DNA of 64,000 nucleotides, from positions 224,001 through 288,000 of the IMG/VR virus record IMGVR_UViG_3300012642_000011. One strand, 5' to 3'. Positions 12,490 through 46,709 of this stretch are shown here, one piece after another; the stretch's first letter is position 1; the number at the start of each line of letters is the position of its first letter. The notes below the pieces were generated by a model. It worked only from the letters and a program-made list of their open reading frames with translations. It was not told the DNA's origin and made no database searches. The stretch comes from a virus. Both the position numbers and the translations under genes were made by a program.

Positions 12490-12543
12490 GTTCTCTCCTT
12501 GAGAGTTGTGGTCTTGGGTGGCTCCCTCGACCTGATGACTCTT

Positions 12544-25769: not shown

Positions 25770-27150
25770 AGAAAACAGATGCTTAATTACATGCTTTTTG
25801 CTATACTATAATGTAGAAACGGGAAGAAGGTGAAAAATGATACTCACAGAGAAGCATGTGATTCGCAAAAATCACATGAACTTCAATGAGTGCGATCATC
25901 TCGCTTTCTTGAGCAAGAATCTTTACAATTCTACTCTTTTTGCCGTTCGCCAGCACTACTTCAGTAATGGTGAATACCTTAACTACAATAATGCAAATAA
26001 AATCTTCACCATAGAGGGACAAAGCGACTATGTTGCCTTGCCCAGAAAAGTCAGCAAACACACAATGATGCTGGTGGATCGTTCTTTCAAATCCTTTTTC
26101 AAACTCTTGGAGAAGAAAAGAAATGGAGAATATGACAAAACCGTAAGAATCCCAAAATACTTAGACAAAACAAAAGGTCGTCAAGTTGTTCATTATGAAA
26201 AAGGGGCATTGTCCTTCAAGAAGAAGGAGGGGTACCTCTATCTTTCACAGACTAACATATATTTGAAAACCAAGGTAACTTCGGATCAAATTCAATTTGC
26301 TAGAATCGTCCCTCGGGGTGAGCATTATGTGATTGAGGTGGGATATAGGGTTCCTCAGGTAGATAATCTTCACGATAATGGGCGATACCTGTCCCTTGAT
26401 CTTGGGGTGAATAATCTTGTCACAGCAGTGAGCAATGTGACAGCCCCGATACTCTTCAATGGGCGACCATTGAAGAGTATCAATCAGTTTTACAATAAGA
26501 GATTTGCATCCCTTCAGTCTAAACTCGGAGAGGAGGTGAAAAGCAGTAAGCAGATCAAGACTTTGCATCAGAGAAGATTGAACAAAATCAATGATTATCT
26601 CCACAAAGCCTCAAGAATGTTGGTGAATCACGCAGTTGAAAACTCTATCAATACTATAGTTATTGGATACAATAAAGAGTGGAAACAAGACATCAACATT
26701 GGGCGAAGAAACAATCAGAATTTTGCCTCTATTCCTTTTGCAAGGCTTATTGAGATGATTGAATACAAGGCTTCTCTTGTTGGTATCAACACCATCAGAC
26801 AGGAAGAGTCCTATACTTCCAAGTGTTCCTTTCTTGACGATGAGCAGGTGAGGAAAGCCAATTCCTATTCAGGAAGAAGGGTGAGTCGAGGTCTTTTCAA
26901 GACTGGGCAAGGACTTCGCGTTAATGCTGATGTGAATGGTGCCTTGAATATCTTAAGAAAAGCACTGAAAGTATCATGGAATGACCAGTTGTGGTCAGAC
27001 TGTGTAGCGGCGTGCAGTGTGCCGAAGCGGGTCAATATACCAGCTTGAAATGTTAATTCATGTTTATCATGTTTTCAACTAACTGTCCATCTTCTCGTTC
27101 ATCGTAAGTATTTTTTCTCCTTGGGAATAGTGGTTTCCGAGCGTGAAGCG
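25770..27150 (+). mobile_element. second IS200/IS605-family tnpB-only insertion, AT-rich; boundaries approximate
   Basis: GC drop at ~25770, return at ~27150; carries TnpB-like ORF antisense to flanking genes. Confidence 0.55.
25837..27048 (+). CDS. tnpB: TnpB-like protein, 403 aa, with degenerate zinc finger (only one Cys in place of CxxC..CxxC)
   Basis: LSLDLGVNN (RuvC-I), ESYTSKCSF..., NADVNGALNILRK (RuvC-III) typical of TnpB; second CxxC absent; RuvC-II Glu not obvious. Confidence 0.65.
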   Translation: MILTEKHVIRKNHMNFNECDHLAFLSKNLYNSTLFAVRQHYFSNGEYLNYNNANKIFTIEGQSDYVALPRKVSKHTMMLVDRSFKSFFKLLEKKRNGEYDKTVRIPKYLDKTKGRQVVHYEKGALSFKKKEGYLYLSQTNIYLKTKVTSDQIQFARIVPRGEHYVIEVGYRVPQVDNLHDNGRYLSLDLGVNNLVTAVSNVTAPILFNGRPLKSINQFYNKRFASLQSKLGEEVKSSKQIKTLHQRRLNKINDYLHKASRMLVNHAVENSINTIVIGYNKEWKQDINIGRRNNQNFASIPFARLIEMIEYKASLVGINTIRQEESYTSKCSFLDDEQVRKANSYSGRRVSRGLFKTGQGLRVNADVNGALNILRKALKVSWNDQLWSDCVAACSVPKRVNIPA

Positions 27151-29287: not shown

Positions 29288-29539
29288 TCAGGCGTTGGTC
29301 TGGTAGCGACGCTCCCACTCGTCCATGATGGAGTTCGCCACGCGGTTGAGGGTGCACGCGTTGGTGTCCATGAGGATGACTCGGTAGCCCTTCTTGCTCC
29401 CCGTGACCGCACCGTAGCGGGTCAGGGTGCGGGCACAGACATGGTTGATGATCTTGGTCACATCCATCTCGTCTGTGCCCTTGAACTGCGGCAGGGTCAG
29501 GGTCATCTCGCCCACGCGGTAGATCTTCATCGTCGTCAT
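29288..29539 (-). CDS. hypothetical protein with MTTMKIYRVGEM N-terminus (chimeric paralog of 18694..19248)
   Basis: Identical first 12-13 aa and upstream region, unrelated remainder. Confidence 0.5.
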   Translation of the reverse strand: MTTMKIYRVGEMTLTLPQFKGTDEMDVTKIINHVCARTLTRYGAVTGSKKGYRVILMDTNACTLNRVANSIMDEWERRYQTNA

Positions 29540-31452: not shown

Positions 31453-31950
31453 TCAGGCCGTGGCGAGCGCCGGAGCGTGGGCGGAGTGGTAGGACTTCTT
31501 CACCGTCTCCGAGACGCGGCCACGGGTGCCCACGGTGAGGCCCTGTGCGATAGCCCACTCGCGGATGCGCGAGTTGGCAGAGAGGATCACCTTCACCGGA
31601 GCGGCCTCGCCGTGAGCCTCACGGTAAGCCTTGACCACGGCGTGCGGGACGCGACCACGCTGACCCGCCTTCAGCAGCCCCTCGGCCTCGGCCCACGCGC
31701 GGATGACGGGGGCGGACTCACCGGCGAGCAGGCCCTTGTCCTCGTTGTAGGCCGCGCCGACAACCTCCCCCTTGTCGAGCAGACGCTCCGCCTTGGACTC
31801 GCGGAAGTTCTTGTCCTTCAGGGCGGCGGCGGTCTTGTCGGTCAGGGCCACGGTGACGCGCTTGCCGTTCACGCGGATGGTGTGCTCGGTCGCGCCGAAG
31901 TGGCCGGTCAGGGCGTCGCGGACGGTGGAGGTGGTCTGGGTCTTCGTCAT
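31453..31950 (-). CDS. lsr2: Lsr2-like nucleoid-associated/xenogeneic-silencing protein with two tandem Lsr2-type C-terminal DNA-binding motifs
   Basis: VIRAWAEAEGLLKAGQRGRVPHAVVKAYREAHG and IREWAIAQGLTVGTRGRVSETVKKSYHSAH match the Lsr2 RGR DNA-binding motif. Confidence 0.65.
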   Translation of the reverse strand: MTKTQTTSTVRDALTGHFGATEHTIRVNGKRVTVALTDKTAAALKDKNFRESKAERLLDKGEVVGAAYNEDKGLLAGESAPVIRAWAEAEGLLKAGQRGRVPHAVVKAYREAHGEAAPVKVILSANSRIREWAIAQGLTVGTRGRVSETVKKSYHSAHAPALATA

Positions 31951-33124: not shown

Positions 33125-33457
33125 TCACTTGATGGTCACGATGAAATCGCTTCCGTACTCATCCTTGCCCTCAAGCGTCTTAGCGTCGATCAGGCCGTTG
33201 AACTCCTTGATGCGATCAACGATGCCTGCCGTGCCCTTGCTTTCAGGCGTCCATCCCAGATGCAGACGGAGAGCGGGCGCATAGTCCTCGTAGTCAACGA
33301 AGACCGTGATCCCCTCGTGCTCCTTCTCGAACTGACGAGCAATCTGCTCAATGTTGGAATGCTTCGCCTTACCAGCACCGATGCTGTAGCCATAGGCGTC
33401 CAGTCGGGCACCACTCAGCGTAGGGGTGTTCTGGGTGAAGTGGTAGTGGTAGGACAT
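33125..33457 (-). CDS. hypothetical protein, 110 aa
   Basis: Canonical conserved leader. Confidence 0.55.
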   Translation of the reverse strand: MSYHYHFTQNTPTLSGARLDAYGYSIGAGKAKHSNIEQIARQFEKEHEGITVFVDYEDYAPALRLHLGWTPESKGTAGIVDRIKEFNGLIDAKTLEGKDEYGSDFIVTIK

Positions 33458-33511
33458 GTTTCTCTCCTTGAGAGTTGTGGTCTTGGGCTGTTCCCTCGAC
33501 CTGATGAATTA

Positions 33512-33545
33512 ATAGTACCACAGGGGACGCTCCATACGCAACACG
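33512..33545 (-). promoter_or_regulatory. conserved promoter exemplar (-35-like, spacer GGAGCGTCCCCTGTGG, TGnTACTAT)
   Basis: Read on minus strand upstream of 33125..33457. Confidence 0.5.
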
Positions 33546-33704
33546 ATTGAGGGAACTTGCAGAATTGTTCAAAAGGGACACAGAAGTAGCGCTGGGTGGG
33601 ATTGGAAGCATGCAGCCCCGTTATCCTCTGGGTAGGGAGGATAGCGGAGCATGTGTAAGAGGGGAGTAGTGGTCAATACGCTTGACCACTACTTCCCCCT
33701 CCAT

Positions 33705-34019
33705 TCACTTGCGTCGCGCAATGCCAACGAGGAACTCGCTGAACTTTGTGCTCGTGAACACGGAATCATAGGGCACGTACAGCGTCCGATGAACGTCGTC
33801 GTACACACGGAAACGTACCTCAATGTCGTAGTTACGGTACGATACATCAACGGATGCGATGTAGCCCACGTGCCACGCCAGATCACCCATAACCACAGCG
33901 CGCAGATGCTCAACGTCCATTCGGTGCAGCGGGACGTACTCGCCCACAAGACACTCCGTGCAACCGCAGTCGTAGGGGTTGATAGCGTAAACTTTCCTGC
34001 CGTCAATGACCTTCGCCAT
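33705..34019 (-). CDS. hypothetical protein (MAKVIDGRKVYAINPYDCGCTEC..., 105 aa)
   Basis: Conserved leader. Confidence 0.55.
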   Translation of the reverse strand: MAKVIDGRKVYAINPYDCGCTECLVGEYVPLHRMDVEHLRAVVMGDLAWHVGYIASVDVSYRNYDIEVRFRVYDDVHRTLYVPYDSVFTSTKFSEFLVGIARRK

Positions 34020-34297
34020 GATGTGCTCCTTGTGGAGTCGTGGTCTTGGGCTGTTCCCTCGACCTGATGACTCTACTCTACCACAAGGGACGCTCCATGT
34101 CAAAATGATTCAGAGCGTGGTGCCACCGTCAGGATGTGGCGCAGAAAGCATAAGGGGACACAAGTCATCACCCTGATCACCAAGGTGCTGCTGTACCCAT
34201 TGGCACCTACAAGATGCTTCATGCTCACTGCCAAGATTGAGACACATTGGTGACACTGCCGCCCACTTGTGTGTCCAGACAGGCGGCAGTGTCATCA

Positions 34298-34756
34298 TCA
34301 GACCTTCACATCATACTGGGAGGTATGAGCAGAGACAGGAACGGGTTCGTAGCGCTTAGTCTTTGCGTTGCAAGACACTGTGGAGATGCTGACGTGCTGG
34401 AATGGCGTGGACGCTCCATCCCAGATAGCGTTGCCGTAAGCCGTCACCGCGCGAAGATGGTCCAGCATCTCCGACTCGTCTTCAGGGGCGGCGATCACCA
34501 TGCGATCCACCTGATTCATCCACTTCACCCAACGGTAGGTGTCCTCTTCAGCGCACCACGTGATCGTGTAATACGTGTCGTCATCAAAGAAGACGGACGC
34601 ATTGGCGTGGTGGTGGCCCTCGTGCTCGGGAGAACAAAGTGGGTTGTCAGCGTAATGGGCAGCAAGCATGGGGTTGTGGGTGAAGCGGAAGTGCCGCTCC
34701 TCATAGTGGGCATTCGTCTTCGTAGCGATAGTGCGCTTGATCTGGTTCAGGTTCAT
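34298..34756 (-). CDS. hypothetical His-rich protein (MNLNQIKRTIATK..., 152 aa)
   Basis: RBS GAGGGAGTCACCACC-ATG. Confidence 0.5.
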   Translation of the reverse strand: MNLNQIKRTIATKTNAHYEERHFRFTHNPMLAAHYADNPLCSPEHEGHHHANASVFFDDDTYYTITWCAEEDTYRWVKWMNQVDRMVIAAPEDESEMLDHLRAVTAYGNAIWDGASTPFQHVSISTVSCNAKTKRYEPVPVSAHTSQYDVKV

Positions 34757-34943
34757 GGTGGTGACTCCCTCGTTATTATCTGTGCCTCCATCATAAGCAT
34801 GATGAAACCGTTGCGTCAAGGAAAAACTAAGGAAGTTAAAAGTCCTTAGTGCCACAGTCTCATGCTTGCGAGAGGTCAAATAAGAACGTTGCCGGTGGCT
34901 CTGGGGACACAATTACACTCCCGTAGATCATCGATGTGGATTA

Positions 34944-34972
34944 TTGATTTCCCTCCTAGTCTGTGATACGAT
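34944..34972 (+). promoter_or_regulatory. sigma70-like promoter TTGATT-17-TACGAT giving a leaderless transcript (ATG at predicted +1)
   Basis: -10 ends 7 nt before ATG 34979; no RBS. Confidence 0.45.
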
Positions 34973-34978
34973 GTCACC

Positions 34979-35497
34979 ATGAGCACGAAGAAATCAAAGC
35001 GACTGGCGTACATTCTGCGTCACGATCCGGCATCTGCGAACACCACTGCCAGTGAGCAGGGTTGGGTCAGTGTGTCGGATATCATGCGTGCTCTCAACGT
35101 CACCATGTCTCAGTTGCAGGTCATCGTGAGCGAGGACAACAAGGGTCGCTACGAGTTCTCTGCAGACAATGAGATGATCAGAGCAACTCAGGGCCACTCC
35201 TACCCTGTCAACTTGGGATGGGAGAGCGTGCTTCCTCCTGCTATCCTCTACCACGGCACGGCTACGCGATTCGTTGAGTCCATCATGCGTGAGGGTCTGG
35301 TCAAGGGGTCGCGTCAGTGGGTCCACCTGTCTGCTGACACTGCTACAGCCTCGATGGTTGGTTCTCGTCATGGCGAGTTGGTCATCCTTGAGGTGGCAGC
35401 ATCTCGCATGGCAGCGGATGGTCGCTCCTTCTACCGCTCTTCCAACGGCGTGTGGATGGCTGAACATGTCCCTGTGGAGTACATCACCACCCTCTGA
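34979..35497 (+). CDS. kptA: RNA 2'-phosphotransferase Tpt1/KptA-like (NAD-dependent)
   Basis: KRLAYILRHDP...GWVSV and LYHGTATRFVESIMREGL...RQWVHLSAD match Tpt1 signature motifs. Confidence 0.7.
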   Translation: MSTKKSKRLAYILRHDPASANTTASEQGWVSVSDIMRALNVTMSQLQVIVSEDNKGRYEFSADNEMIRATQGHSYPVNLGWESVLPPAILYHGTATRFVESIMREGLVKGSRQWVHLSADTATASMVGSRHGELVILEVAASRMAADGRSFYRSSNGVWMAEHVPVEYITTL

Positions 35498-35637
35498 TAG
35501 CAGAGAATCTTGTGGCACACAGTTGTCACAGGATTCTCTCATGACGGACAGGGGACACAAAAACAGAACAACACCAACCAAACACTACGGCCCGCCGTTC
35601 CCTCGTGTGAGGTACTGGGCGGGCCGTAGTGTGGAGG

Positions 35638-35940
35638 TCACAGACCAGAGAGTTCAGACTTGACAGAACACATCCACGACGGGGTGATCTCGTTGATGCT
35701 CTCAACCATGAACTCCTTCTCGTTGAAGGCGTTGATGAAGTTGATCACGTTGTTGAACTTGAAGTAGGTGATGTAGTCATCACCAGAGAGTTCGCCGTTC
35801 TCGATCTTCACGGTCAGACCATTCACCTCGAAGGTGAAGTAGAAGACAGTCATCTCACCAGTGTGCATGCAGAAGTCACAGGTGCCCCAAGTGATGTCCT
35901 CCTGGCTGCTGTCAACGTTCACGATCTTCACGGGGTACAT
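35638..35940 (-). CDS. hypothetical protein, 100 aa
   Basis: Conserved leader. Confidence 0.55.
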   Translation of the reverse strand: MYPVKIVNVDSSQEDITWGTCDFCMHTGEMTVFYFTFEVNGLTVKIENGELSGDDYITYFKFNNVINFINAFNEKEFMVESINEITPSWMCSVKSELSGL

Positions 35941-36060
35941 GGTATCTCCTTGTGGAGTAATGGTCTCGGGCTGTTCCCTCGACCTGATGAATCAATAGTA
36001 GCACAGGGGACGCTCCATACGCAACTCCACAACGCGAATAATTTGAGTAGAGTCGTAGCC

Positions 36061-36522
36061 TCACCCCATACGGTAGGAGAAAAGCGTCTCGAAACCCTGT
36101 ACGCCCTCATCATCCACTGTCCCACGGCTTACATGAATCCAGTTAAAAGGCTCATTCTCGCCCTCCATGCTTGCCCCTGTCACATGCGGCAGATAGCCGT
36201 CGCCGTGGTGCTCGGGAACAGCAAGGGACGCTCCACTATCGATAGCGGCGCGCAAAAGATGATCGTGCATAGTGCCGATCTGGTTGCTCTTCAAAACTTC
36301 AATGACGTGAATTGCTTCCCCATCGTCCCCCTGAAACACCTGCTCACCTTGATTAGAAGTGATCACAGGGCCAAAATAGAAACAAGCATTCTTTACTCTG
36401 TCAATGAACTTGTTGACCTGATCCTCTGTGTCAACACGGAAGGCAGGCATCAGTGTCAGATGGAAAACAGATCCTTCACCGTGATCAACAATCACATAGA
36501 TCTTCATGTCCTTATTGTGCAT
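36061..36522 (-). CDS. hypothetical protein (MHNKDMKIYVIVDHGEG..., 153 aa)
   Basis: RBS CAAGGAATCCAAG-ATG. Confidence 0.45.
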   Translation of the reverse strand: MHNKDMKIYVIVDHGEGSVFHLTLMPAFRVDTEDQVNKFIDRVKNACFYFGPVITSNQGEQVFQGDDGEAIHVIEVLKSNQIGTMHDHLLRAAIDSGASLAVPEHHGDGYLPHVTGASMEGENEPFNWIHVSRGTVDDEGVQGFETLFSYRMG

Positions 36523-36656
36523 CTTGGATTCCTTGTCTGAATATGAGTTTGTCAACAATCTATCATGGATGAACGTATAAGACAACCTTGTTTTCAGGCG
36601 AGGTCTCCTTAGGGACACAGGATACTCGTAGATGATCCTTTCCGAAGTCTTGGGGA

Positions 36657-36866
36657 TCACTCATTCCATGAAGCGAAATCTCCCCATGTGGACGTACCGG
36701 AATGATCGGTAACGGAATGATCTGCAGAACCGTTATGATCTGTGGTGTCCTTCTGATCGCCTTCGCGGATGAGTCGATGCGCTTCCTCGAAGACGCGACG
36801 ATGGTACTCCGCTTCGGTCTCACCTTCCTCGTAGGTAACGGCAGCGTGCTTCATTGCGTGCTTCAT
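36657..36866 (-). CDS. hypothetical small protein, 69 aa
   Basis: RBS AAAGGAGAGCATC-ATG. Confidence 0.45.
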   Translation of the reverse strand: MKHAMKHAAVTYEEGETEAEYHRRVFEEAHRLIREGDQKDTTDHNGSADHSVTDHSGTSTWGDFASWNE

Positions 36867-37192
36867 GATGCTCTCCTTTTCGTGTTGTCCTTGCCACTAT
36901 GGTAACAGGTTTAAAGGTATTACGGTAGGGGGTACATTCTTTGATTACTGGTAGGTTGCATGAGGGTGAGTCGCCTCTGGATTGTCTGACCTCGACAGAG
37001 GCTCTGTGTGCCCTTCTGACGCCTTCTAACACCCCCATCCCACTGTGAGGCATCAACGGTTGGAACGTTCTTCTACGAGCCGCACAGCCTCGTAGAGCAT
37101 ATATTCTCACTCGTGCGTGCTCACATGAGTGGCTTTGGGTGTCTGATGTTCTCGTGGACCCTTGGGGACACAAAATGGTGTGAGACGAAAAA

Positions 37193-37230
37193 GGCCCTGC
37201 CGTCCTCCCGTGTGGGATTCTGGCAGGGCC
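37193..37230 (-). terminator. conserved-loop intrinsic terminator (GGCCCUGCC-loop-GGCAGGGCC + U-run)
   Basis: Follows stop of 37236..37475 on minus strand. Confidence 0.6.
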
Positions 37231-37235
37231 TCGTA

Positions 37236-37475
37236 TCAGGCGAGGTTATCCGGCAGGTCTCCGGTCTCTCGCAGGGAACGCTTCACCGCCGACTTGGCGT
37301 TACGGATGCCAGAGGCGGACTTGGAAGTGGAGGGGCCGACGAACATGCGACCGTTGATGAGGCGGTAGCGGATGTGACCGGAACCCGTCTTGCCCTCCAC
37401 TTCGCCTAGGTTGTTCTTCACGATCCAATCGTGAAGTTCCTTGGCGATCCCCGTTGCTCCGATTCGCTTCCCCAT
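37236..37475 (-). CDS. hypothetical protein (MGKRIGATGIAKELHDW..., 79 aa)
   Basis: Conserved leader. Confidence 0.5.
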   Translation of the reverse strand: MGKRIGATGIAKELHDWIVKNNLGEVEGKTGSGHIRYRLINGRMFVGPSTSKSASGIRNAKSAVKRSLRETGDLPDNLA

Positions 37476-37703
37476 GATCTCTCCTTGAGAGTTGCGGTCT
37501 CGGGCTGTTCCCTCGACCTGATGAATCAATAGTACCACAGGGGACGCTCCATCGTCTACTCCGCAGAGAATTTATTTTCAGCACTCTTGGAGGCAGATGG
37601 ACAAGGGGACACAATAATCGTATCCCTCTTGACTAAGAGGACAGGATACAGTTCGGCCCACCATCCTCCCGTGTGTGGGATTCTGGTGGGCCGAACTGTC
37701 TCA

Positions 37704-37913
37704 TCACGCCTTGACGGACTCCCACGTGTTCTCGGAAGTCTTCACCATGGTCATGTCCGTCACGTCCACACCGATGTGCTTGAGGCGATGCACAGCGGCC
37801 TTCTTGGCGATCTCGCGCGGGACGTAGGGGTAGATTGTGGACTCCACGAACTGAGTGCCGTTGTAGACGGTCACGATGTAGTCAACGCCGTTCTTGGTCA
37901 GGACTGCCTTCAT
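37704..37913 (-). CDS. hypothetical protein, 69 aa
   Basis: Conserved leader variant. Confidence 0.5.
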   Translation of the reverse strand: MKAVLTKNGVDYIVTVYNGTQFVESTIYPYVPREIAKKAAVHRLKHIGVDVTDMTMVKTSENTWESVKA

Positions 37914-38000
37914 GATGCTCTCTCCTTGAGAGTAGTAGGGATTACTCTGTGTGCTCTCCCTTGCTGATGAATTAATAGTAGCACAGGGGGACGCTCCATG

Positions 38001-40182: not shown

Positions 40183-40488
40183 TCATACGTTCACGATGGT
40201 GGCGTTCTTCATGTGCTGGTCGTAGGCGTCCACGATGATAGCGGCCAGCTGACCACGCTCGCTCACGTCGTAGCCGTTCTTGATGGCCCACGCTCGGATG
40301 GTGGCCGTGGTGGTCTTGGGGCGGTAGGAGGGGTTCTCGTCACGGAACTGGGCCACGAGATCCTTGGACAGACGACCACGGACGCTGACCTCGATGCCCT
40401 TGGACTTGGCCCACTGGCGGATGTCAGCGGCAGCCGAACGGCCAGCGATGAGGGTCTTGTCCTCGTTGTACTTGCGCTTGGTGGTCAT
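40183..40488 (-). CDS. lsr2: Lsr2-like DNA-binding protein (two Lsr2-type motifs), ~101 aa
   Basis: IRQWAKSKGIEVSVRGRLSKDLVAQF and IRAWAIKNGYDVSERGQLAAIIVDAY; conserved leader. Confidence 0.55.
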   Translation of the reverse strand: MTTKRKYNEDKTLIAGRSAAADIRQWAKSKGIEVSVRGRLSKDLVAQFRDENPSYRPKTTTATIRAWAIKNGYDVSERGQLAAIIVDAYDQHMKNATIVNV

Positions 40489-40762: not shown

Positions 40763-41488
40763 TCAGGTCGCACAATCGTTTCCGGTCAACTTTGCATAAT
40801 CACACACTTGTGCGTTGCCAGACACTTGTGCATTTCCGGCCACAAATGCACAATCGTACACTTGTGCGTTACCGGACACTTGTGCGCTGTCTGTTACTTC
40901 TGCATCGTCAGATACCTGTGTATTACCAGTCACTTGAGCGTTGTCATAAATAAATGCTTCACCGGATACTCGTGCTTTACCAGACACCCGTGCGTTACCT
41001 GCCACGCGCGAGTTGCCATAAATTCGCGTGTTACCAGACACTCGCGCATTATCGTACACCTCTGCGTTGCCATATACTCGTGCGTTGTCATGCACAAGAG
41101 CGTCATCAAACACGTAAGCGTCGCCGGACACACAAGCGCTACCGTACACCGAAGCATTGCCAAATACCCAAGCGTTCTCGAACACTCGCGCGTTGCCGTA
41201 AACCCGCGAGTCCTCAGTGACGTATATGTTACCAAGCAACTCTGCGTTATCATACGCCTGAGCGTTCTCGTACACCCGAGCGTTATCAGTCACGTGCGCA
41301 TTGCCGTACACCTTCGCCTCATCATTGACCCATGCATTATCTGAGAGATTGTCCATGCTCTCCACATAACCGCCCAGATCCCCAGATTTCACCTCATGAT
41401 CGGGCAGGTCGCGTGTGGCTCGAATACGGTGGAGCGTTCGACCGTTGTAGTGAATCGTTTCATCTGTCAGTTCGTAATTCTTATTCAT
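40763..41488 (-). CDS. hexapeptide-repeat (LbH-like) paralog, 241 aa
   Basis: N-term MNKNYELTDETIHYNGRTLHRIRATRDLP..., ~30 xVxGNAxV repeats; co-operonic with 41503..42258 (14-nt gap). Confidence 0.65.
   Translation of the reverse strand: MNKNYELTDETIHYNGRTLHRIRATRDLPDHEVKSGDLGGYVESMDNLSDNAWVNDEAKVYGNAHVTDNARVYENAQAYDNAELLGNIYVTEDSRVYGNARVFENAWVFGNASVYGSACVSGDAYVFDDALVHDNARVYGNAEVYDNARVSGNTRIYGNSRVAGNARVSGKARVSGEAFIYDNAQVTGNTQVSDDAEVTDSAQVSGNAQVYDCAFVAGNAQVSGNAQVCDYAKLTGNDCAT
40800..41340 (-). repeat. tandem 18-bp coding repeats (gcg tta ccg gac act cgc-type), also in 41760-42110, 43060-43600, 43860-44210, 44600-44900, 45300-45930 and 60-330
   Basis: Periodicity produces the many short overlapping out-of-frame ORFs in the six-frame track. 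Confidence 0.8.
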
Positions 41489-41502
41489 GATTTCTCCTTG
41501 TA

Positions 41503-42258
41503 TTATTTAGTCCAGCGTGCGACACGGGCGCGGCACTGATCAATGACGGATTGGTACTCGGGACGTGCGTCACGAATGATTTCAGGGTCAGTGGTTTCAA
41601 CCCATGAATCCGAGTCGCAGAGGATCTGGTGATCATCAAGAGTGCCTGACTTGCAACCGATATGGAGAACATGATCATCCGTGGTGCGGTGCAGGGTCCA
41701 ATTGAATTGCCGATTGGTGCAGAGTGTGCCGATCATAATATGCTTTTCTTCAGCCACTCGCGCGTACCCAAACACGTGTGCGTTACCAAAAACTCGCGCG
41801 TACCCAAACACCCGTGCGTTACCACACACCCGTGCCCAATTGTACACTTGTGCGTCATCGGACACTTGTGCGTTGTCTGTTACTTCTGCATTCTCAAATA
41901 TGTGTGCCTTACCAGCCACTTGAGCTTTGTCATAAATAAATGCGTCATCGGACACTAGTGCGTCCCCGAACACTTGTGCGTCCCCGAACACTTGTGCGTT
42001 ACCGGACACGCGTGCGTTGCCATATACACGCGCGTCATCGTACACCAAAGCGTTCCCTGACACTCGTGCGTCATCGTACACCATCGCCTCATCAGCGACC
42101 CATGCGCTATCGGAGAGGTTGTCCAGATGTTCCACGAAGCCGCCCAGATCGCCGGGCTTTACAGCGTGGTAGGGTAGTTCTCGTGTTGCACGAATGCGGT
42201 GGAGCGTTCGACCGTCGTAGTGAATCGTTTCATCTGTCAGTTCGAAATGCTTATTCAT
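41503..42258 (-). CDS. hexapeptide-repeat paralog with extra ~80-aa Cys-containing C-terminal domain, 251 aa
   Basis: Same N-term domain; C-term AEEKHIMIGTLCTNRQFNW... unique. Confidence 0.65.
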   Translation of the reverse strand: MNKHFELTDETIHYDGRTLHRIRATRELPYHAVKPGDLGGFVEHLDNLSDSAWVADEAMVYDDARVSGNALVYDDARVYGNARVSGNAQVFGDAQVFGDALVSDDAFIYDKAQVAGKAHIFENAEVTDNAQVSDDAQVYNWARVCGNARVFGYARVFGNAHVFGYARVAEEKHIMIGTLCTNRQFNWTLHRTTDDHVLHIGCKSGTLDDHQILCDSDSWVETTDPEIIRDARPEYQSVIDQCRARVARWTK

Positions 42259-42467
42259 GGCGTCTCCTTGAAAATGGTAGGGATTATCTTATCAACGATC
42301 CTATGCTGCCCTTACCCTATCATATGGGACGCTCTATGCGCAACCTATTTCTTGTACTAATTGGGCTATATTGCGACAAGTGATGCCGAAGTTTACACAA
42401 GGGGACACAGTAGCGAAAACAGAGAACGGACAAGGCGACAGTCGATGCCACCTTGTCCGTTCTCTGA

Positions 42468-42779
42468 TCAGGCTGCGAGGTTGTAGTAATCCTTGAGGTC
42501 AGTGTTCTTGAACCCACCCATAGCGTGAGCGTTTCGCTCCGACATGGCCCACGTGCGGATCTTCTTGTTCTGGGTGCGGTGGAAGTAGTTCCGGTTCCGC
42601 TGGACTCGCGTTCCGAAGTTGACGATATCCTCGTAGTTCGCGTAGGTGGTGTTGTCCTTCTTGTTCTTGACACGATTGATGGTGCTCTCATCGGCGGGGA
42701 AAAGGTAGATGCCCTTGCCGGGAACGCGGATCTCGACATGACCCTTGACATCGGAAGCGAAGACCTGGAAGTTCTGCAT
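42468..42779 (-). CDS. hypothetical protein (MQNFQVFASDVKGHVEIRVPGKG..., 103 aa)
   Basis: Conserved leader; embedded between LbH paralogs. Confidence 0.5.
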   Translation of the reverse strand: MQNFQVFASDVKGHVEIRVPGKGIYLFPADESTINRVKNKKDNTTYANYEDIVNFGTRVQRNRNYFHRTQNKKIRTWAMSERNAHAMGGFKNTDLKDYYNLAA

Positions 42780-43022
42780 AATCTCTCCTTGAGAGTGGTA
42801 AGGGTCGCTCTGTGTTGCTCTCCCTTGCTGATGAGTCAATAGTAACACGGGGGACGCTCCATGCGCAACCTGACAGCAGAAATAATCTAGGGAGGCTCAC
42901 AACCTCTCGATTGGATCACTTCAATTCGTGATAGTATGCTCACACATACCTATGGGGACACATAACTTGCTGTAAACAGTCAAGTAGCACAGTAGGGATA
43001 CAACTACTGTGCTACTTGGGTT

Positions 43023-43724
43023 TTACCACCTGCAATCAAACCAATTAATTTCATCAGTAACTATTGCATTACCGGACACCCGCGAGTTACCAATCACCCG
43101 CGCATATTCGCAAACCCTCGAACAACCAGTCACTATTGCATTACCTGACACCAATGCTCTGTCTGTCACTTGTGCATTACCATTCACCATTGCTCTTTCA
43201 GAGACCAGTGAATTACCAAATACCTGTGCGTCACCCCTCACTATCGCGTCATCGATAACCCTTGTTTTGCCGTGTACACGAGCATTGCCAGACACATGCG
43301 CATGACCGAACACCCACGCTTCATCGAATACTCGTGCAGAGATATATACATATGCGTAACCGAACACCCGTGCGTCACCATAGACCCACGCTTCACCGGA
43401 CACTGATGAATTACCACTCACCAATGCGTTGCCGAAAACCCGCGCACTATTGTACACATGTGCAGTACCAGTCACCAATGCATTACCGGACACCATTGCC
43501 TTACCATTCACTTTTGCGCCCCCTGATACCCGCGCGTCCCCGTACACCATAGCCTCGCCACCGACCCATGCGATATCTGAAAGGTTATCCAAACGCTCCA
43601 CAAAACCACCCAGATCACCTGACTTTACGCGGTGCTCGGGCAAGTCTTGCGTGGCGCAGATACGATGGAGCGTGTGTCCTTCATAGCGGATCGTCTCATT
43701 TGTTAGTTCAAAGTGTTTAGTCAT
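43023..43724 (-). CDS. hexapeptide-repeat paralog, 233 aa
   Basis: N-term MTKHFELTNETIRYEGHTLHRICATQDLP... Confidence 0.65.
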   Translation of the reverse strand: MTKHFELTNETIRYEGHTLHRICATQDLPEHRVKSGDLGGFVERLDNLSDIAWVGGEAMVYGDARVSGGAKVNGKAMVSGNALVTGTAHVYNSARVFGNALVSGNSSVSGEAWVYGDARVFGYAYVYISARVFDEAWVFGHAHVSGNARVHGKTRVIDDAIVRGDAQVFGNSLVSERAMVNGNAQVTDRALVSGNAIVTGCSRVCEYARVIGNSRVSGNAIVTDEINWFDCRW

Positions 43725-43825
43725 GGTTTTCCTCGTGAAGTAATGATCTTTGTTTATTTCCTATAGTAGATTTTTAGATTTTCCATCGGATTATTTCATT
43801 TCTTGATCAGGTTACTCACAGACGC

Positions 43826-44347
43826 TCACCTGTGCATCACGGTCACTTCTGCGTCGCCAGACACTCGCACGTCACCTGTCATCCATGCTTCTCCAAACAC
43901 GCGTGCGTTACCAATCACATTCACGCTGTCGGCCACAACCGCTTCCCCATACACGTGAGCATTCTCAGCCACGTATGCATTACCGGACACTCGCGTGTCG
44001 CCATGCACTCGCGCGTCACCTGTCACCCATGCTTCGCCGTACACTCGCGCATTACCGAACACCCGCGCGCGACCATCCACCAGTGCGTTACCGGCCACCT
44101 GTGCATTACCAGACACCTCTGCATTGCTGTACACCTGCGCGTTATCATATACTCGCGCGTCATCGTACACCTTGGCCTCATCAGCAACCCATGCGTTACC
44201 TGAAAGGTTGTCCATGCCCTCCACAAAACCGCCCAGATCACCGGCCTTCACGTCATGAATAGGCAGGTTTCGTGTTGCACGGATGCGGTAGAGCGTGCGG
44301 CCCTCATGATTGATGGTCTCGTCAGTCAGTTCGAAGTGCTTATTCAT
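43826..44347 (-). CDS. hexapeptide-repeat paralog, 173 aa
   Basis: Same family. Confidence 0.65.
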   Translation of the reverse strand: MNKHFELTDETINHEGRTLYRIRATRNLPIHDVKAGDLGGFVEGMDNLSGNAWVADEAKVYDDARVYDNAQVYSNAEVSGNAQVAGNALVDGRARVFGNARVYGEAWVTGDARVHGDTRVSGNAYVAENAHVYGEAVVADSVNVIGNARVFGEAWMTGDVRVSGDAEVTVMHR

Positions 44348-44573
44348 AGTTTCTCCTTGAAATGGTAGGTGATGACCTTACCCTATCATGGAGACGACCC
44401 ATACGCAACATGTGCAGCATGAATGATCTATGGAGACTCACGGTATCTCAATTGGGTCATTTCAACTCATGAGACTACTAAAGGGACACAAAACGTGGTA
44501 CAAACAAGGCAATCAGCACAGTAGGAATCCCACTACTGTGCTGATTGCCTTTTATTGCTTGGAATCAGGCCGC

Positions 44574-45038
44574 TCAATCAGTGCCGATTACCGACATCTC
44601 ATCGAACACTCGCGCGTCGCCGGACACTCGTGCGTTACCGGACACCCATGCGTTACCGAACACGTTCGCATCACCGGACACCCATGCGCTACCGGAGACA
44701 TATGCCCCTTCGTACACCCACGCATTGCCATAGACCCATGCATCGTCGTACACACGCGCATTGCCAAACACTCGTGCGTTACCGGACACTCGGGCGTAAC
44801 CGAACACTCGCGCGTTGTCATACACTCGCGCGTTATCAGTCACGTGTGCATTGCCGTACACCTTCGCCATATCAGCGACCCACGCGTTATGTGAGAGATT
44901 GTCCGTGCCCTCCACGAAACCACCCAGATCACCCTGCAGCACGTTGTGCTCTGGCAGGTCGCGTGTGGCACGGATGCGATAGAGCGTGCGACCCTCATGG
45001 TTGATGGTCTCGTCAGTCAGTTCGAAGTGGTTGCTCAT
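44574..45038 (-). CDS. hexapeptide-repeat paralog, 154 aa
   Basis: Same family. Confidence 0.65.
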   Translation of the reverse strand: MSNHFELTDETINHEGRTLYRIRATRDLPEHNVLQGDLGGFVEGTDNLSHNAWVADMAKVYGNAHVTDNARVYDNARVFGYARVSGNARVFGNARVYDDAWVYGNAWVYEGAYVSGSAWVSGDANVFGNAWVSGNARVSGDARVFDEMSVIGTD

Positions 45039-45268
45039 AGCGTCTCCTTGAGAGTGGTAGGGTGTTGTCCTATTGACGTTCCCGTGATTCCCTTATCCTA
45101 TCATGGGAGACGCTCCACATGCAACACTAGTGATCTAGGGAGGCTCACGACATCTCAATTGGATCACTTCAACTCGTAAGAATGCTAAAGGGACACAAAG
45201 TATTAAGTAAACAATCAGGTAGCACAGTAGTGGTATTCCTACTGTACTACCTGACTTTTGTTGCTTGA

Positions 45269-46084
45269 TCAGGTCGCTCGTTCGTTACCTAACACTCGTG
45301 CGTAACCATACACCAGCGCGTTGTCGGTCACCCATGCATCACCCTGCACCTGAGCGTTGTCTTCCACTCGCGCATAGGTGAGCACGCATGCGTTACCAAA
45401 CACTCGCGCGTTACCGGACACTCGCGCATAGTCAGTCACTTGCGCGTTATCGTACACCATTGCACCACCGAACACCTGAGCGTTACCGGACACCTGTGCC
45501 TCACCGAACACTTGGGCGTTACGAGATACCCACGCGTTACCGGACACCACTGCATCGCCGTACACTTGTGCGTCTTCATCAATATATGCACCACCGAACA
45601 CCTGAGCGTTACCGTACACTCGGGCGCAATCGGACACTCGTGCGTTATCGTACACTCGCGCGTCGCAAAGCACTAGCGCGTTACCCGTCACTCGCGCGTT
45701 ACCGGACACTCGCGCATAGTCAGTCACTTGCGCGTTATCGTACACCATTGCACCACCGAACACCTGAGCGTTACCGGACACCTGTGCCTCACCGAACACC
45801 CAAGCGTAACCGAACACTCGCGCGTCGTCGCCAATATATGCCTTACCGAACACCCATGCATCATTGGATACCCGTGCGTTACCAGATACCAGCGCGTTAC
45901 CAAACACATACGCCTCATCAGCAACCCATGCATCATCTGAAAGGTTGTCCAGACGCTCCACGTAACCACCCAGATCCCCAGCCTTCACATCATGATCGGG
46001 CAGATCTCGTGTCGCACGGATACGATAGAGCGTTCGACCGTAGCGGATGATGGTATCGTTTGTCAGTTCGAAGTGCTTGCTCAT
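45269..46084 (-). CDS. hexapeptide-repeat paralog, 271 aa, with internal ~300-bp duplication
   Basis: Blocks 45400-45540 and 45690-45830 nearly identical at DNA level. Confidence 0.65.
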   Translation of the reverse strand: MSKHFELTNDTIIRYGRTLYRIRATRDLPDHDVKAGDLGGYVERLDNLSDDAWVADEAYVFGNALVSGNARVSNDAWVFGKAYIGDDARVFGYAWVFGEAQVSGNAQVFGGAMVYDNAQVTDYARVSGNARVTGNALVLCDARVYDNARVSDCARVYGNAQVFGGAYIDEDAQVYGDAVVSGNAWVSRNAQVFGEAQVSGNAQVFGGAMVYDNAQVTDYARVSGNARVFGNACVLTYARVEDNAQVQGDAWVTDNALVYGYARVLGNERAT

Positions 46085-46337
46085 GATTTCTCCTTATGAA
46101 TGAGGGGCGATTCGTGTTTGCTGCCTTCGTCGCTAACGCAACTCTACCATAGGAAACACTCCACTATCAACTCTGAAACGAAACTTCAAGGTCAATTCTT
46201 ACCATCCTTTGAGTATAGGGGACACAAGTTGCGAGGGTGTTTCCTACAAGTCCTCATGGTCTCCCCATGTTGACAATGAGTTACCCATGTGTTAGATTTA
46301 AGTCATCAACAGGTTCATTGGTACAGGAGAGTGAAAC

Positions 46338-46709
46338 ATGAAGCAGGGATTGATCGTACTCATTGATGATCTGAGGTCATTCAAGGATGCTCAGATGATG
46401 GAGAATGCTGTAGTGATCCGCACAATCAAAGATGCGCTGACGTGGCTGGATGCTTCCAGTGGTGTTCATGTTGCCCAGTTGTGGCTTGACCATGATCTTG
46501 GCGAGGTGGATGGTGTTGCTACAGACGTGATGCCGTTCGTGAACTTGCTGGAAGAGCGACTTGCCTTGGGAGAGGACGCTCCGTATATTGACGATGTGAT
46601 CGTCCACACTTCGAACACTGTGGGTCGCTCTCGCATGATTGCTGCCTTGTCGGGCCGTGTGGGTCGCGTGGTGGTTGTGGACGCTGGCGCGTACTTCACC
46701 GCTCAGTAA
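46338..46709 (+). CDS. hypothetical protein; weak resemblance to a stand-alone receiver (REC)/flavodoxin-like fold
   Basis: LIVLIDD at N-term, Asp ~53, HTS ~83; RBS CAGGAGAGTGAAAC-ATG. Confidence 0.3.
   Translation: MKQGLIVLIDDLRSFKDAQMMENAVVIRTIKDALTWLDASSGVHVAQLWLDHDLGEVDGVATDVMPFVNLLEERLALGEDAPYIDDVIVHTSNTVGRSRMIAALSGRVGRVVVVDAGAYFTAQ

What the first reader, a model, noticed from the sequence alone, without database searches (positions are those of the whole stretch)
34940..35497. Tpt1/KptA-family RNA 2'-phosphotransferase expressed from a leaderless promoter
The product has the Tpt1 signatures LxYxLRHxP...GW and HGT...RQWVHLS. Tpt1 enzymes remove 2'-phosphates and can ADP-ribosylate 5'-phosphorylated nucleic acid ends. 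In a mobile element, this could repair RNA damaged by a host tRNA- or rRNA-targeting defence, or modify nucleic acid ends. The gene is transcribed from TTGATT-17-TACGAT with the ATG at the predicted +1. Leaderless transcripts are common in Actinobacteria, so this also supports the host assignment.
Basis: partly seen in the sequence, partly recalled or inferred. Interest (0 to 1): 0.55.

Follow-up and report, generated by a model that had tools for sequence, protein, structure and literature searches.

The report
Phage Tpt1 RNA 2'-phosphotransferase gene
This is an intact copy of a well-known RNA-repair enzyme (Tpt1/KptA) carried by a very large uncultured phage-like element, probably made from an mRNA that starts at its own start codon and sitting near other RNA-repair genes; it is a sound but fairly ordinary finding.

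Summary
ORF 34979..35497 (+) encodes a 172-aa full-length Tpt1/KptA (Pfam PF01885, E=1.7e-41). All four catalytic residues are present: R14, H15, R57 and R112. The model (pLDDT 94) superposes on C. thermocellum Tpt1 at TM 0.91.

The promoter reads exactly as described: TTGATT, 17 nt, TGA-TACGAT, 6 nt, ATG. An in-frame stop lies 12 nt upstream. The Shine-Dalgarno match is weak (-5.1 against a median of -8.3 kcal/mol over 100 genes). A leaderless start is therefore likely, though unproven.

The window is part of a 332-kb metagenomic contig that looks like an actinobacterial jumbo phage. It has three Lsr2 genes, and its RNA ligase is closest to those of Arthrobacter and Microbacterium phages.

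- a divergent 2H-type phosphoesterase 564 bp away (36061..36522, -);
- a cREC cyclic-phosphate domain gene (46338..46709, +);
- an Rnl5-type RNA ligase 4 kb beyond the window end.

Together these fit the NAD+-dependent RNA-repair set already predicted for jumbo phages. No polynucleotide kinase was found in the 83 kb surveyed.

Verdict: a new member of a known kind, of modest interest.

The parts
34944..34949 (+). -35-like hexamer TTGATT (4 of 6 matches to TTGACA)
   Evidence: Read, positions verified. Unchanged in the 97% variant L009.
34964..34972 (+). Extended -10 element TGA-TACGAT (TGnTANNNT). The TGA is also the in-frame stop that closes the reading frame upstream of the start codon.
   Evidence: Unchanged in L009, whereas the spacer and the 6-nt discriminator carry about 5 differences, one of them an indel. 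The TANNNT and TGn motifs are described in PMC3898074.
34979..35497 (+). Tpt1/KptA RNA 2'-phosphotransferase CDS, 172 aa. The ATG at 34979 is the predicted +1. Catalytic residues are R14, H15, R57 and R112.
   Evidence: pN/pS is 0.14 against L009, and GC is 56.5% against a gene mean of 56%.
35502..35539 (.). 16-bp hairpin starting 5 nt after the Tpt1 stop codon. Candidate terminator without a U-tract.
   Evidence: -23.5 kcal/mol, z = -5.1. The canonical terminator scan does not report it. One substitution, in the loop, in L009.
35582..35632 (.). Long hairpin between the convergent genes Tpt1 (+) and 35638..35940 (-). Candidate bidirectional terminator.
   Evidence: -39.2 kcal/mol on the + strand and -38.7 on the - strand, z = -5.4 and -7.9. 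Invariant in L003, L005 and L009.
36061..36522 (-). 153-aa divergent 2H-superfamily phosphoesterase candidate with HLTL at residues 21-24 and HVTG at 113-116. Predicted cyclic phosphodiesterase partner of Tpt1.
   Evidence: Its own Pfam hit to PF13563 has E=0.0034 and 17.9 bits, below the gathering score of 27. Remote homologues came from a full HMMER scan. H21, T23 and H113 are invariant in 15 sequences. 13 of 15 members hit PF13563 (best 9.3e-11) and 7 hit LigT_PEase. The profile hits PDB 2d4g (BSU11850) at E=6.4e-05, then PH0099.
46338..46709 (+). cREC (cyclic-phosphate processing receiver) domain gene, 123 aa. It has its own TTGACA-17-TAGATT promoter (46270-46298), a leader with an AGGAGA Shine-Dalgarno, and a downstream hairpin.
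   Evidence: PF20274 E=2.2e-14. Sequence and acidic residues DD / DHD. Predicted role from PMC7824862.

Best explanation
The gene encodes a catalytically competent NAD+-dependent RNA 2'-phosphotransferase (Tpt1/KptA) of a roughly 332-kb phage-like element whose host is probably an actinobacterium.

Shown here: the protein is full length, keeps the Arg-His-Arg-Arg active site, models confidently onto solved Tpt1 structures, and is under purifying selection.

Inferred expression: the host sigma-A-type RNA polymerase starts at the A of the ATG, from TTGATT-17-TGATACGAT. This would give a leaderless, single-gene mRNA that ends at the hairpins at 35502-35632. The gene lies on the opposite strand from the surrounding genes, which use a stereotyped promoter, 5'UTR and strong Shine-Dalgarno.

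Inferred function: the enzyme works in phage RNA repair.
1. [quoted passage not shown]
2. The nearby 2H-like phosphoesterase and/or the cREC protein opens the cyclic phosphate to a 2'-phosphate.
3. The Rnl5-type RNA ligase of the same genome seals the break.
4. [quoted passage not shown]
5. The 2H or cREC enzyme can then linearise that by-product.
For: Enzyme identity:
- Pfam PF01885 E=1.7e-41, full length. PHROG 5470 'RNA 2'-phosphotransferase' E=2.6e-56. Runella Tpt1 E=6e-41 and C. thermocellum Tpt1 E=2e-31.
- R14, H15, R57 and R112 are invariant in 22- and 50-sequence alignments. They align with the residues whose alanine substitution kills Runella Tpt1 (PMC6097658).
- AlphaFold model pLDDT 94, TM 0.91 and rmsd 1.7 A to 6e3a.
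- 11 synonymous against 5 non-synonymous differences from the 97% variant, pN/pS 0.14.
- Every Tpt1 tested performs internal 2'-PO4 removal. The closest characterised relative, Runella Tpt1 (45% identity), is inactive in pDNA 5'-capping and ineffective on terminal 2'/3'-phosphates (PMC6182162; PMC6573784).

Expression:
- ATG 34979 is the only start codon after the stop at 34964-34966.
- Family-conserved residues begin at residue 4.
- Shine-Dalgarno pairing is -5.1 kcal/mol, against a median of -8.3; 82 of 100 genes are at or below -7.
- Tpt1 is the only called gene with the full promoter-to-ATG arrangement.
- The first 21-25 nt of the mRNA are unpaired in the predicted fold.
- The hexamers, the TG and the 6-nt gap are kept in L009, while the spacer and discriminator changed.

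Context:
- 2H-like gene 564 bp from the Tpt1 stop.
- cREC PF20274 E=2.2e-14.
- 334-aa ligase with PF21189 + PF09414, E=4.6e-46 full length to Naegleria RNA ligase 5cot.
- This enzyme set is the one predicted for jumbo-phage RNA repair (PMC7824862; PMC9503650).
Against: - No activity, transcript end or substrate has been measured.
- The promoter matches the consensus at only 8 of 12 positions, and the scan tool does not call it. Window-wide, the composite motif is no more frequent than chance.
- A weak GTGAT complementarity to the 16S 3' tail lies 11 nt upstream of the ATG. It could serve if transcription started further upstream, for example from TTGCCG-19-TACACT (-10 hexamer starting at 34914).
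- The repair genes are not an operon. The 2H gene is on the other strand, cREC is 11 kb away and the ligase 33 kb away.
- The 2H assignment rests on family-level profile evidence. The protein's own Pfam score is below threshold, and its single-sequence model was too poor to use.
- No polynucleotide kinase (no Walker A motif) was found in the roughly 83 kb surveyed. About 250 kb of the contig could not be read.
- Whether an Rnl5 ligase accepts a 2'-phosphate end was not established here.
- NCBIfam equivalog cut-offs are not reached: 202 bits against 239.
Confidence: 0.6

Rival explanations
1. The enzyme acts mainly as a nucleic-acid ADP-ribosyltransferase. It would cap 5'-phosphate ends of RNA or DNA with ADP-ribose, either to protect phage ends or to block host RNA or DNA ends, rather than remove 2'-phosphates.
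For: A subset of Tpt1 enzymes cap 5'-phosphate RNA or DNA ends (PMC6182162). Streptomyces SCO3953 and human TRPT1 do so in vitro (PMC11833690). Solved KptA/DNA/5'-p-ADPR complexes exist and superpose on the model at TM about 0.92.
Against: Capping ability cannot be read from sequence. The nearest characterised relative, Runella Tpt1, was inactive in DNA capping, whereas all Tpt1 enzymes tested do the canonical reaction. R57, whose Runella equivalent (Arg64) is selectively needed for step 2, the phosphotransfer step (PMC6097658), is invariant. The genomic company (2H, cREC, RNA ligase) fits phosphate-end processing. No macrodomain or other de-capping enzyme was seen in the surveyed 83 kb.
Confidence: 0.12
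2. The repair role is the same but the order differs. Tpt1 removes a terminal 2'-phosphate, left by the 2H or cREC enzyme, before ligation, so that the ligase receives an ordinary 2'-OH,3'-OH end and no 2'-phosphate junction is ever formed.
For: C. thermocellum, Aeropyrum and Chaetomium Tpt1 remove terminal 2'-phosphates (PMC6573784). The genome's ligase belongs to the Naegleria (Rnl5) type rather than the fungal/plant Trl1 type that demands a 2'-phosphate (the Trl1 requirement is stated in PMC6097658).
Against: Runella Tpt1, the closest characterised relative, is ineffective on terminal 2'- or 3'-phosphates. Nothing in the sequence discriminates between the two orders.
Confidence: 0.2
3. The gene is not leaderless. 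Transcription starts further upstream in the 221-nt divergent intergenic region, and the ATG is reached by a ribosome without a classical Shine-Dalgarno, or with the weak GTGAT match.
For: The promoter is only an 8 of 12 consensus match and is not called by the scan. An alternative TTGCCG-19-TACACT lies about 53 nt upstream. The upstream region 34780-34940 is more conserved between variants than the promoter spacer. About 8 of 100 genes have weak Shine-Dalgarno pairing, and most of them lack a -10 element at the ATG.
Against: The alternative has a 19-nt spacer and no TG. The TGnTANNNT element sits exactly 6 nt from the ATG and is preserved in the variant while flanking bases changed. Given 8 genes with weak Shine-Dalgarno pairing, only about 0.01 would be expected to carry the full arrangement by chance.
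Confidence: 0.25
4. The gene is a passenger ('moron'): an independently transcribed cassette picked up from a bacterium, with no role in the phage's own RNA metabolism.
For: It is a single gene on the opposite strand from its neighbours, with its own promoter and hairpins. Its nearest relatives, at about 52% identity, are cellular or unassigned metagenomic proteins from unrelated phyla.
Against: Its composition matches the other genes of the element (GC 56.5%, GC3 66.5% against means of 56% and 71%). The identical protein is found on 23 or more contigs from several samples. It is under purifying selection. Functionally related genes lie nearby.
Confidence: 0.05

Closest known systems
Runella slithyformis Tpt1 (PDB 7kw8; PMC6097658, PMC8464070)
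   Same: Best solved-structure match (E=6e-41, 45% identity in alignment A3). Similar size. The four essential residues are the same (R16/H17/R64/R119 = R14/H15/R57/R112). It too is encoded near RNA-repair genes (a ligase and an end-healing enzyme).
   Different: It is bacterial and chromosomal, and sits in a co-oriented four-gene cluster with HD-Pnk, a ligase and an MTase-HIT protein. The phage protein has a 7-residue deletion in the N-terminal lobe, and its partners are a 2H-like enzyme, cREC and an Rnl5 ligase scattered over 33 kb.
Phage-encoded KptA of jumbo phages (PHROG 5470; Erwinia, Dickeya, Klebsiella and Serratia jumbo phages, Bacillus phage G, C. difficile phiCD211)
   Same: Same family, 33-45% identity over the full length. 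Large phage genomes. The predicted role is NAD+-dependent clean-up of 2'-phosphates during RNA repair, together with 2H, cREC and RNA ligases (PMC7824862, PMC9503650).
   Different: None of the 60 listed records, nor any of the ten organism names tallied across the 98 matching records, is from an actinobacterial host; three names were not shown. In phiCD211 and Erwinia pEa_SNUABM_30 the gene is co-oriented within a run of genes and has no annotated repair neighbour. Here it is a lone opposite-strand unit with a leaderless-type promoter.
Fungal/plant tRNA splicing pathway (Trl1 CPDase + kinase + ligase, then Tpt1)
   Same: The proposed logic is the same: a 2H-type cyclic phosphodiesterase makes a 2'-phosphate, a ligase seals the break, and Tpt1 removes the 2'-phosphate with NAD+.
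   Different: The ligase here is the Naegleria/Rnl5 type, not Trl1. No kinase was found. The components are separate small proteins. No intron-containing tRNA substrate is implied.
Leaderless mRNAs of Actinobacteria (e.g. M. tuberculosis, PMC3898074)
   Same: A TANNNT -10 element, here with the TGn extension, lies a few bases upstream of a start codon that is itself the transcript start. There is no Shine-Dalgarno.
   Different: There is no experimental 5' end here. The element's other genes are overwhelmingly led by a strong Shine-Dalgarno, so this would be a minority mode in this genome.

Membership tests
Tpt1/KptA RNA 2'-phosphotransferase (Pfam PF01885) | Full-length match to the family profile above the curated threshold | tested here: met
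   142.7 bits against a gathering score of 26, E=1.7e-41, covering profile positions 5-176 of 177.
Tpt1/KptA RNA 2'-phosphotransferase (Pfam PF01885) | Catalytic Arg-His-Arg-Arg tetrad (yeast R23/H24/R71/R138; E. coli R21/H22/R69/R125; Runella R16/H17/R64/R119) | tested here: met
   R14, H15, R57 and R112 align with the Runella and C. thermocellum residues and are invariant in 22 and 50 sequences. Residue numbering is from PMC6097658.
Tpt1/KptA RNA 2'-phosphotransferase (Pfam PF01885) | Overall fold superposable on solved Tpt1 structures (two-lobed enzyme, PMC8464070) | tested here: met
   Model pLDDT 94.1. Foldseek against PDB gives the top 21 hits all Tpt1/KptA; 6e3a has TM 0.91 and rmsd 1.7 A.
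Tpt1/KptA RNA 2'-phosphotransferase (Pfam PF01885) | NAD+-dependent removal of an internal RNA 2'-phosphate; complementation of yeast tpt1-delta | not testable with these tools
   Needs a biochemical or genetic assay.
NCBIfam PRK00819 equivalog models (NF002012-NF002015) | Score at or above the curated equivalog cut-off | tested here: not met
   Best score is 202.1 bits against a cut-off of 239 (NF002014). These cut-offs define narrow bacterial subgroups used for automatic naming, not the family. The protein is a divergent member.
Leaderless transcript | A -10 element (TANNNT) positioned so that the A of the start codon is +1 | tested here: met
   TACGAT at 34967-34972, 6 nt, ATG at 34979, preceded by TG. 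Motif and position as in PMC3898074.
Leaderless transcript | No Shine-Dalgarno and no alternative upstream start | tested here: met
   Pairing is -5.1 kcal/mol against a median of -8.3. An in-frame TGA lies at 34964-34966. Downstream starts would delete R14/H15.
Leaderless transcript | Mapped primary 5' end at the start codon | not testable with these tools
   Needs 5'-RACE, dRNA-seq or Cappable-seq.
Phage NAD+-dependent RNA-repair set (KptA + 2H/cREC + RNA ligase + end-healing kinase; PMC7824862, PMC9503650) | Cyclic-phosphate-opening enzyme (2H or cREC) in the same genome | tested here: met
   cREC PF20274 E=2.2e-14. The 2H-like protein has two conserved HxT motifs, and its family hits PF13563 (13 of 15 members, best 9.3e-11) and PDB 2d4g at E=6.4e-05. 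The 2H protein's own Pfam score is below threshold.
Phage NAD+-dependent RNA-repair set (KptA + 2H/cREC + RNA ligase + end-healing kinase; PMC7824862, PMC9503650) | RNA ligase in the same genome | tested here: met
   L012 14804-15808 (same contig, 4.2 kb past the window end) carries PF21189 + PF09414 and matches Naegleria RNA ligase at E=4.6e-46.
Phage NAD+-dependent RNA-repair set (KptA + 2H/cREC + RNA ligase + end-healing kinase; PMC7824862, PMC9503650) | 5'-OH polynucleotide kinase | tested here: not met
   No Walker A motif in any ORF of 80 aa or more in the window, L012 or L013, and no kinase Pfam hit. Only about 83 of 332 kb could be read, so absence from the genome is not shown.
Phage NAD+-dependent RNA-repair set (KptA + 2H/cREC + RNA ligase + end-healing kinase; PMC7824862, PMC9503650) | Operonic or neighbourhood linkage of the components | tested here: inconclusive
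   The 2H-like gene is two genes away but on the opposite strand. cREC is 11 kb away and the ligase 33 kb away, and each has its own promoter.

The most novel reading that the evidence does not exclude
The phage runs a complete, separately encoded version of the fungal/plant-style '2'-phosphate junction' RNA repair pathway. A divergent 2H enzyme makes 2'-PO4/3'-OH ends, an Rnl5-type ligase seals them, and Tpt1 erases the mark. This would supply a natural substrate for a bacterial-world Tpt1, whose substrates in bacteria are still described as obscure (PMC6573784). It would also be the first such system in a phage of Actinobacteria.
Probability: 0.2. Interest if true: 0.6.

Novelty: new member of a known kind. 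Interest (0 to 1): 0.3.

Why it matters
Tpt1/KptA is widespread in bacteria and phages, yet its natural substrates outside fungal and plant tRNA splicing remain unclear. This element offers a compact, testable set in one genome: Tpt1, a neighbouring 2H-like phosphoesterase, a cREC protein and an Rnl5 ligase. It may also extend phage KptA to actinobacterial jumbo phages. For annotation, it adds a well-supported example of a gene with a leaderless-type start in a genome whose other genes nearly all use a strong Shine-Dalgarno. Gene callers and expression predictions can mishandle that arrangement. None of this changes current understanding: the enzyme, its presence in jumbo phages and the proposed repair role are already in the literature.

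Tried and rejected
- Megablast of 33500-37500 against 50,697 phage records found no match, so there is no close cultured relative.
- My first by-eye choice of R68 (IRATQGHS) as the third tetrad residue was wrong. The alignment to Runella and C. thermocellum shows it is R57.
- Two look-ups failed because I mis-set minus-strand coordinates. They were repeated correctly.
- My naive Shine-Dalgarno-based gene caller was too noisy. I replaced it with the gene calls attached to the contig loci.
- Host identification through the TnpB gene failed: the best genome hits are only 57% (Lachnospiraceae MAGs), then cyanobacteria and archaea. Host identification through a beta-solenoid paralogue also failed, giving repeat-driven hits to unrelated phages.
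- tblastn of cREC against phages found no match.
- Rfam at gathering thresholds found nothing in the window.
- The sigma-70 and terminator scan lists neither the Tpt1 promoter (8/12) nor the hairpins, which lack a U-tract.
- The word-index homologue search for the 2H-like protein returned only a 94% variant. The full HMMER scan was needed.
- The single-sequence AlphaFold model of the 2H-like protein had pLDDT 52, and its Foldseek hits were meaningless. I should have waited for the alignment before spending the last structure job.
- Annotated neighbourhoods of KptA in phiCD211 and Erwinia pEa_SNUABM_30 showed no annotated repair partners.
Full report
**What is at the coordinates**

TTGATT lies at 34944-34949, followed by a 17-nt spacer, then TACGAT at 34967-34972, then six bases (GTCACC) and ATG at 34979. 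Positions were checked by script. The two bases before the spacer's last base are TG, so the -10 element is the extended form TGnTANNNT.

The ORF list gives 34979..35497 (+), 172 aa. This ATG is the first possible start after an in-frame stop, and that stop is the TGA of the extended -10 element itself (34964-34966). The quoted signatures are all present: LAYILRHDP at residues 9-17, GW at 28-29, HGT at 92-94 and RQWVHLS at 112-118.

**Is it a Tpt1?**

Yes, by every test available.

- *Profiles.* Pfam PF01885 matches over essentially the whole profile (positions 5-176 of 177) with E=1.7e-41 and 142.7 bits, against a gathering score of 26. PHROG 5470, 'RNA 2'-phosphotransferase', gives E=2.6e-56.
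- *Solved structures.* The best sequence matches are Runella slithyformis Tpt1 (7kw8, E=6e-41) and Clostridium thermocellum Tpt1 (6e3a, E=2e-31).
- *NCBIfam.* The four PRK00819 equivalog models match strongly (up to 202 bits) but below their strict cut-offs (239). The protein is therefore a divergent member, not one of those narrow bacterial subgroups.
In an alignment with the Runella and C. thermocellum enzymes and 19 database homologues, and again with 49 homologues, R14, H15, R57 and R112 are invariant. They align with Runella R16/H17/R64/R119, whose alanine mutants are lethal in yeast and catalytically crippled (PMC6097658). The third arginine is R57 (KGRYEF), not the R68 of IRATQGHS.
- *Fold.* An AlphaFold model built from the 50-sequence alignment has mean pLDDT 94.1. 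Its top 21 PDB matches are all Tpt1/KptA, led by 6e3a at TM 0.91 and rmsd 1.7 A.
- *Selection.* Against a 97%-identical variant from another sample (L009) there are 11 synonymous and 5 non-synonymous differences, giving pN/pS 0.14. The gene's GC (56.5%) and GC3 (66.5%) are like those of the other genes here (means 56% and 71%). The gene is functional and long resident, not a fresh insertion.

**Where the window comes from**

The exact protein is encoded on at least 23 metagenomic contigs. The longest is a 332,269-bp contig (ENA ERZ27289831 k141_11150), of which the window is the reverse complement of about 91.7-155.7 kb. There is no close relative among 50,697 phage records.

The surveyed region consists of many small genes. 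Of the 100 gene calls, 66 are on the minus strand. Many share a stereotyped promoter, 5'UTR and strong Shine-Dalgarno unit.

Markers of an actinobacterial phage are as follows:
- Three Lsr2 DNA-binding-domain proteins. One of them finds only Streptomyces phage Lsr2-like genes by tblastn.
- An RNA ligase whose nearest phage relatives are Arthrobacter and Microbacterium phages.
- Matches to the Pfam families Phage_gp86 and Phage_VG64.

I saw no capsid or terminase gene, because only about 83 kb could be read. 'Jumbo phage' is therefore a well-founded inference, not a demonstration.

**Leaderless expression**

Evidence for:
- No other start is possible. A stop lies 12 nt upstream, family-conserved residues begin at residue 4, and the next in-frame starts would delete R14/H15.
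- Predicted pairing of the upstream 18 nt with the 16S 3' tail is -5.1 kcal/mol. The median over 100 called genes is -8.3, and 82 of 100 are at or below -7.
- The -10 element ends 6 nt before the A of the ATG. This is the geometry of leaderless promoters, and TANNNT with TGn is the actinobacterial -10 form (PMC3898074).
- Tpt1 is the only one of the 100 called genes whose start carries the composite pattern. The per-start chance is 0.13%, or 0.036% with TGn.
- In variant L009, the stretch from the -35 hexamer to the ATG differs at about five positions, one of them an indel that lengthens the spacer to 18 nt. All of them fall in the spacer or discriminator. The -35, TG, -10 and the 6-nt gap are unchanged.
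- The first 21-25 nt of the predicted mRNA are unpaired.

Evidence against:
- The hexamers match the consensus at only 8 of 12 positions, so the scan tool with its 9/12 cut-off does not report the site.
- The composite motif is not enriched in the window overall: 7 occurrences against 5.5 +/- 2.2.
- A weaker alternative promoter (TTGCCG-19-TACACT) lies about 53 nt upstream.
- A five-base GTGAT complementarity to the 16S tail exists 11 nt upstream.

I rate a leaderless start at about 0.6-0.7. Only 5'-end mapping can settle it.

Downstream, two strong hairpins (35502-35539, -23.5 kcal/mol; 35582-35632, -39 kcal/mol; z from -5 to -8) lie between Tpt1 and the convergent gene 35638..35940. They are conserved in the variants. 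They lack U-tracts, so they are not canonical terminators.

**Genomic company**

Pfam hits attached to the contig's gene calls, plus my own scans, show no RNA-repair domain at standard thresholds in the immediate neighbours. A relaxed scan showed more.

- *2H-like phosphoesterase, 36061..36522 (-).* This 153-aa product, whose gene begins 564 bp past the Tpt1 stop, hits the 2H phosphoesterase families weakly: PF13563 at E=0.0034 and LigT_PEase at E=0.22.
  - It carries two H-x-T-x motifs, HLTL at 21-24 and HVTG at 113-116.
  - A word-index search found only a 94% variant. A full HMMER scan of 1.8 billion representatives found 14 more relatives.
  - In their alignment H21, T23 and H113 are invariant.
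  - 13 of the 15 members hit PF13563 (best 9.3e-11) and 7 hit LigT_PEase.
  - The family profile hits solved B. subtilis BSU11850 (2d4g, E=6.4e-05), and then more weakly (E=0.1) PH0099 of Pyrococcus horikoshii. To my knowledge both belong to the 2H/LigT phosphoesterase group.
  - I therefore regard it as a divergent 2H phosphoesterase. A single-sequence structure model was too poor to add anything.
- *cREC gene, 46338..46709 (+).* It encodes a cREC domain (PF20274, E=2.2e-14) with the receiver-type acidic residues, under its own TTGACA-17-TAGATT promoter.
- *RNA ligase.* 4.2 kb beyond the window end the same contig encodes a 334-aa ligase (PF21189 + PF09414) that aligns end to end with Naegleria gruberi RNA ligase (E=4.6e-46).
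- *Missing kinase.* No Walker A motif, and hence no P-loop polynucleotide kinase, exists in any ORF of 80 aa or more in the roughly 83 kb I could read.

**How it most likely works**

All Tpt1 enzymes tested convert an internal RNA 2'-phosphate to 2'-OH using NAD+ (PMC6182162). Only some cap 5'-phosphate ends or remove terminal phosphates. The closest characterised relative, Runella Tpt1, was inactive in pDNA capping and ineffective on terminal 2'/3'-phosphates.

Comparative genomics of jumbo phages has already proposed that KptA, 2H, cREC and RNA ligases together repair RNAs cut by host metal-independent nucleases (PMC7824862; PMC9503650). The set found here matches that proposal.

The proposed sequence is:
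1. 2H and/or cREC opens the 2',3'-cyclic phosphate to a 2'-phosphate.
2. The ligase seals the break.
3. Tpt1 removes the 2'-phosphate.
4. 2H or cREC linearises the ADP-ribose cyclic phosphate by-product.

The catalytic competence of Tpt1 is well supported by sequence and model. Every pathway step is inferred. The order of steps, the kinase and the substrate are unknown.

**Comparison with the known, and novelty**

Phage KptA is established. 98 phage records carry a homologue at 33-45% identity, most of them jumbo phages of Erwinia, Dickeya, Klebsiella and Serratia, plus Bacillus phage G and C. difficile phages, and many are already annotated as RNA 2'-phosphotransferase. None of the listed records has an actinobacterial host, so this may extend the host range of phage KptA.

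The opposite-strand, single-gene, leaderless-type unit and the divergent 2H neighbour are local peculiarities, not a new kind of system.

Verdict: a new member of a known kind. Interest is modest (0.3).

Noticed in passing
window 8775-8880, 12487-12593, 13775-13880, 20452-20557, 33456-33561, 34019-34124, 35939-36044, 37473-37578 and at least 8 more: A stereotyped unit of about 90 nt precedes many genes, mostly on the minus strand. On the coding strand it reads TTGnnn, about 18 nt containing an invariant GGAGCGTCCCC, TGGTACTAT, then a conserved 5'UTR (UCAGGUCGAGGGAACAGCCCAAGACCAC..CUCUCAAGGAGA) and AUG. The UTR can form a GGUC/GACC-GGG/CCC hairpin. It looks like a phage promoter class with a built-in operator or 5' stabiliser. 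There is no Rfam match.
   Followed up: partly
window 1822-1901, 37910-37989, 42773-42852, 49034-49113, 54181-54260: A second conserved promoter/5'UTR class (..GGGAGAGCAACACAGAGCAATCCCTACCACTCTCAAGGAGA..ATG) precedes another subset of genes.
   Followed up: no
window 40763-46084 (-) and 1-500: Six tandem paralogous genes encode YdcK-type beta-solenoid/hexapeptide repeat proteins (PF18836, up to E=4e-32) with 18-nt DNA periodicity. Another copy runs off the window start.
   Followed up: partly
window 5786-7246 (+) and 25837-27048 (+): Two TnpB/IS605-OrfB-type genes (PF07282, PF01385) sit in lower-GC islands (47%). The first lacks a Shine-Dalgarno and has TGATATAAT 5 nt before its ATG, so it also looks leaderless. 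ORF 7256-7645 directly after it may be a spurious call over the element's RNA region. The nearest genomic relatives of the second are only 57% identical (Lachnospiraceae MAGs).
   Followed up: partly
window 36061-36522 (-): A divergent 2H phosphoesterase family with very few relatives: 15 sequences at E<=1e-3 among 1.8 billion representatives, none carrying a precomputed Pfam hit. Both HxT/S motifs and a third invariant His (H86) are conserved.
   Followed up: yes
L012 14804-15808 (-), same contig, equivalent to window 68225-69229: A Naegleria-type (Rnl5) RNA ligase with an N-terminal OB domain. Its nearest phage homologues are in Arthrobacter and Microbacterium phages (about 40% identity). 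A GmrSD_C/HNH nuclease-like gene lies 1.3 kb further on (L012 17153-17995).
   Followed up: partly
window 31453-31950 (-), 40183-40488 (-), 50996-51337 (-): Three Lsr2 DNA-binding-domain proteins lie within 20 kb (PF23359, best E=8e-26). This suggests the element manipulates or mimics the host's xenogeneic silencer.
   Followed up: partly
window 29288-29539 (-): Another gene without a Shine-Dalgarno (-4.3 kcal/mol), with CTTACA-18-TAGGTT-GGCACC-ATG. The discriminator resembles that of Tpt1 (GTCACC-ATG), so this is a possible second leaderless gene. Gene calls on this stretch disagree between contigs.
   Followed up: no
window 52675-53832 (-) and 23202-23615 (-): A FemAB-family peptidyltransferase (PF02388, E=4e-47) and a GNAT acetyltransferase are encoded by the element. 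This hints at modification of the host cell wall or of small molecules.
   Followed up: no
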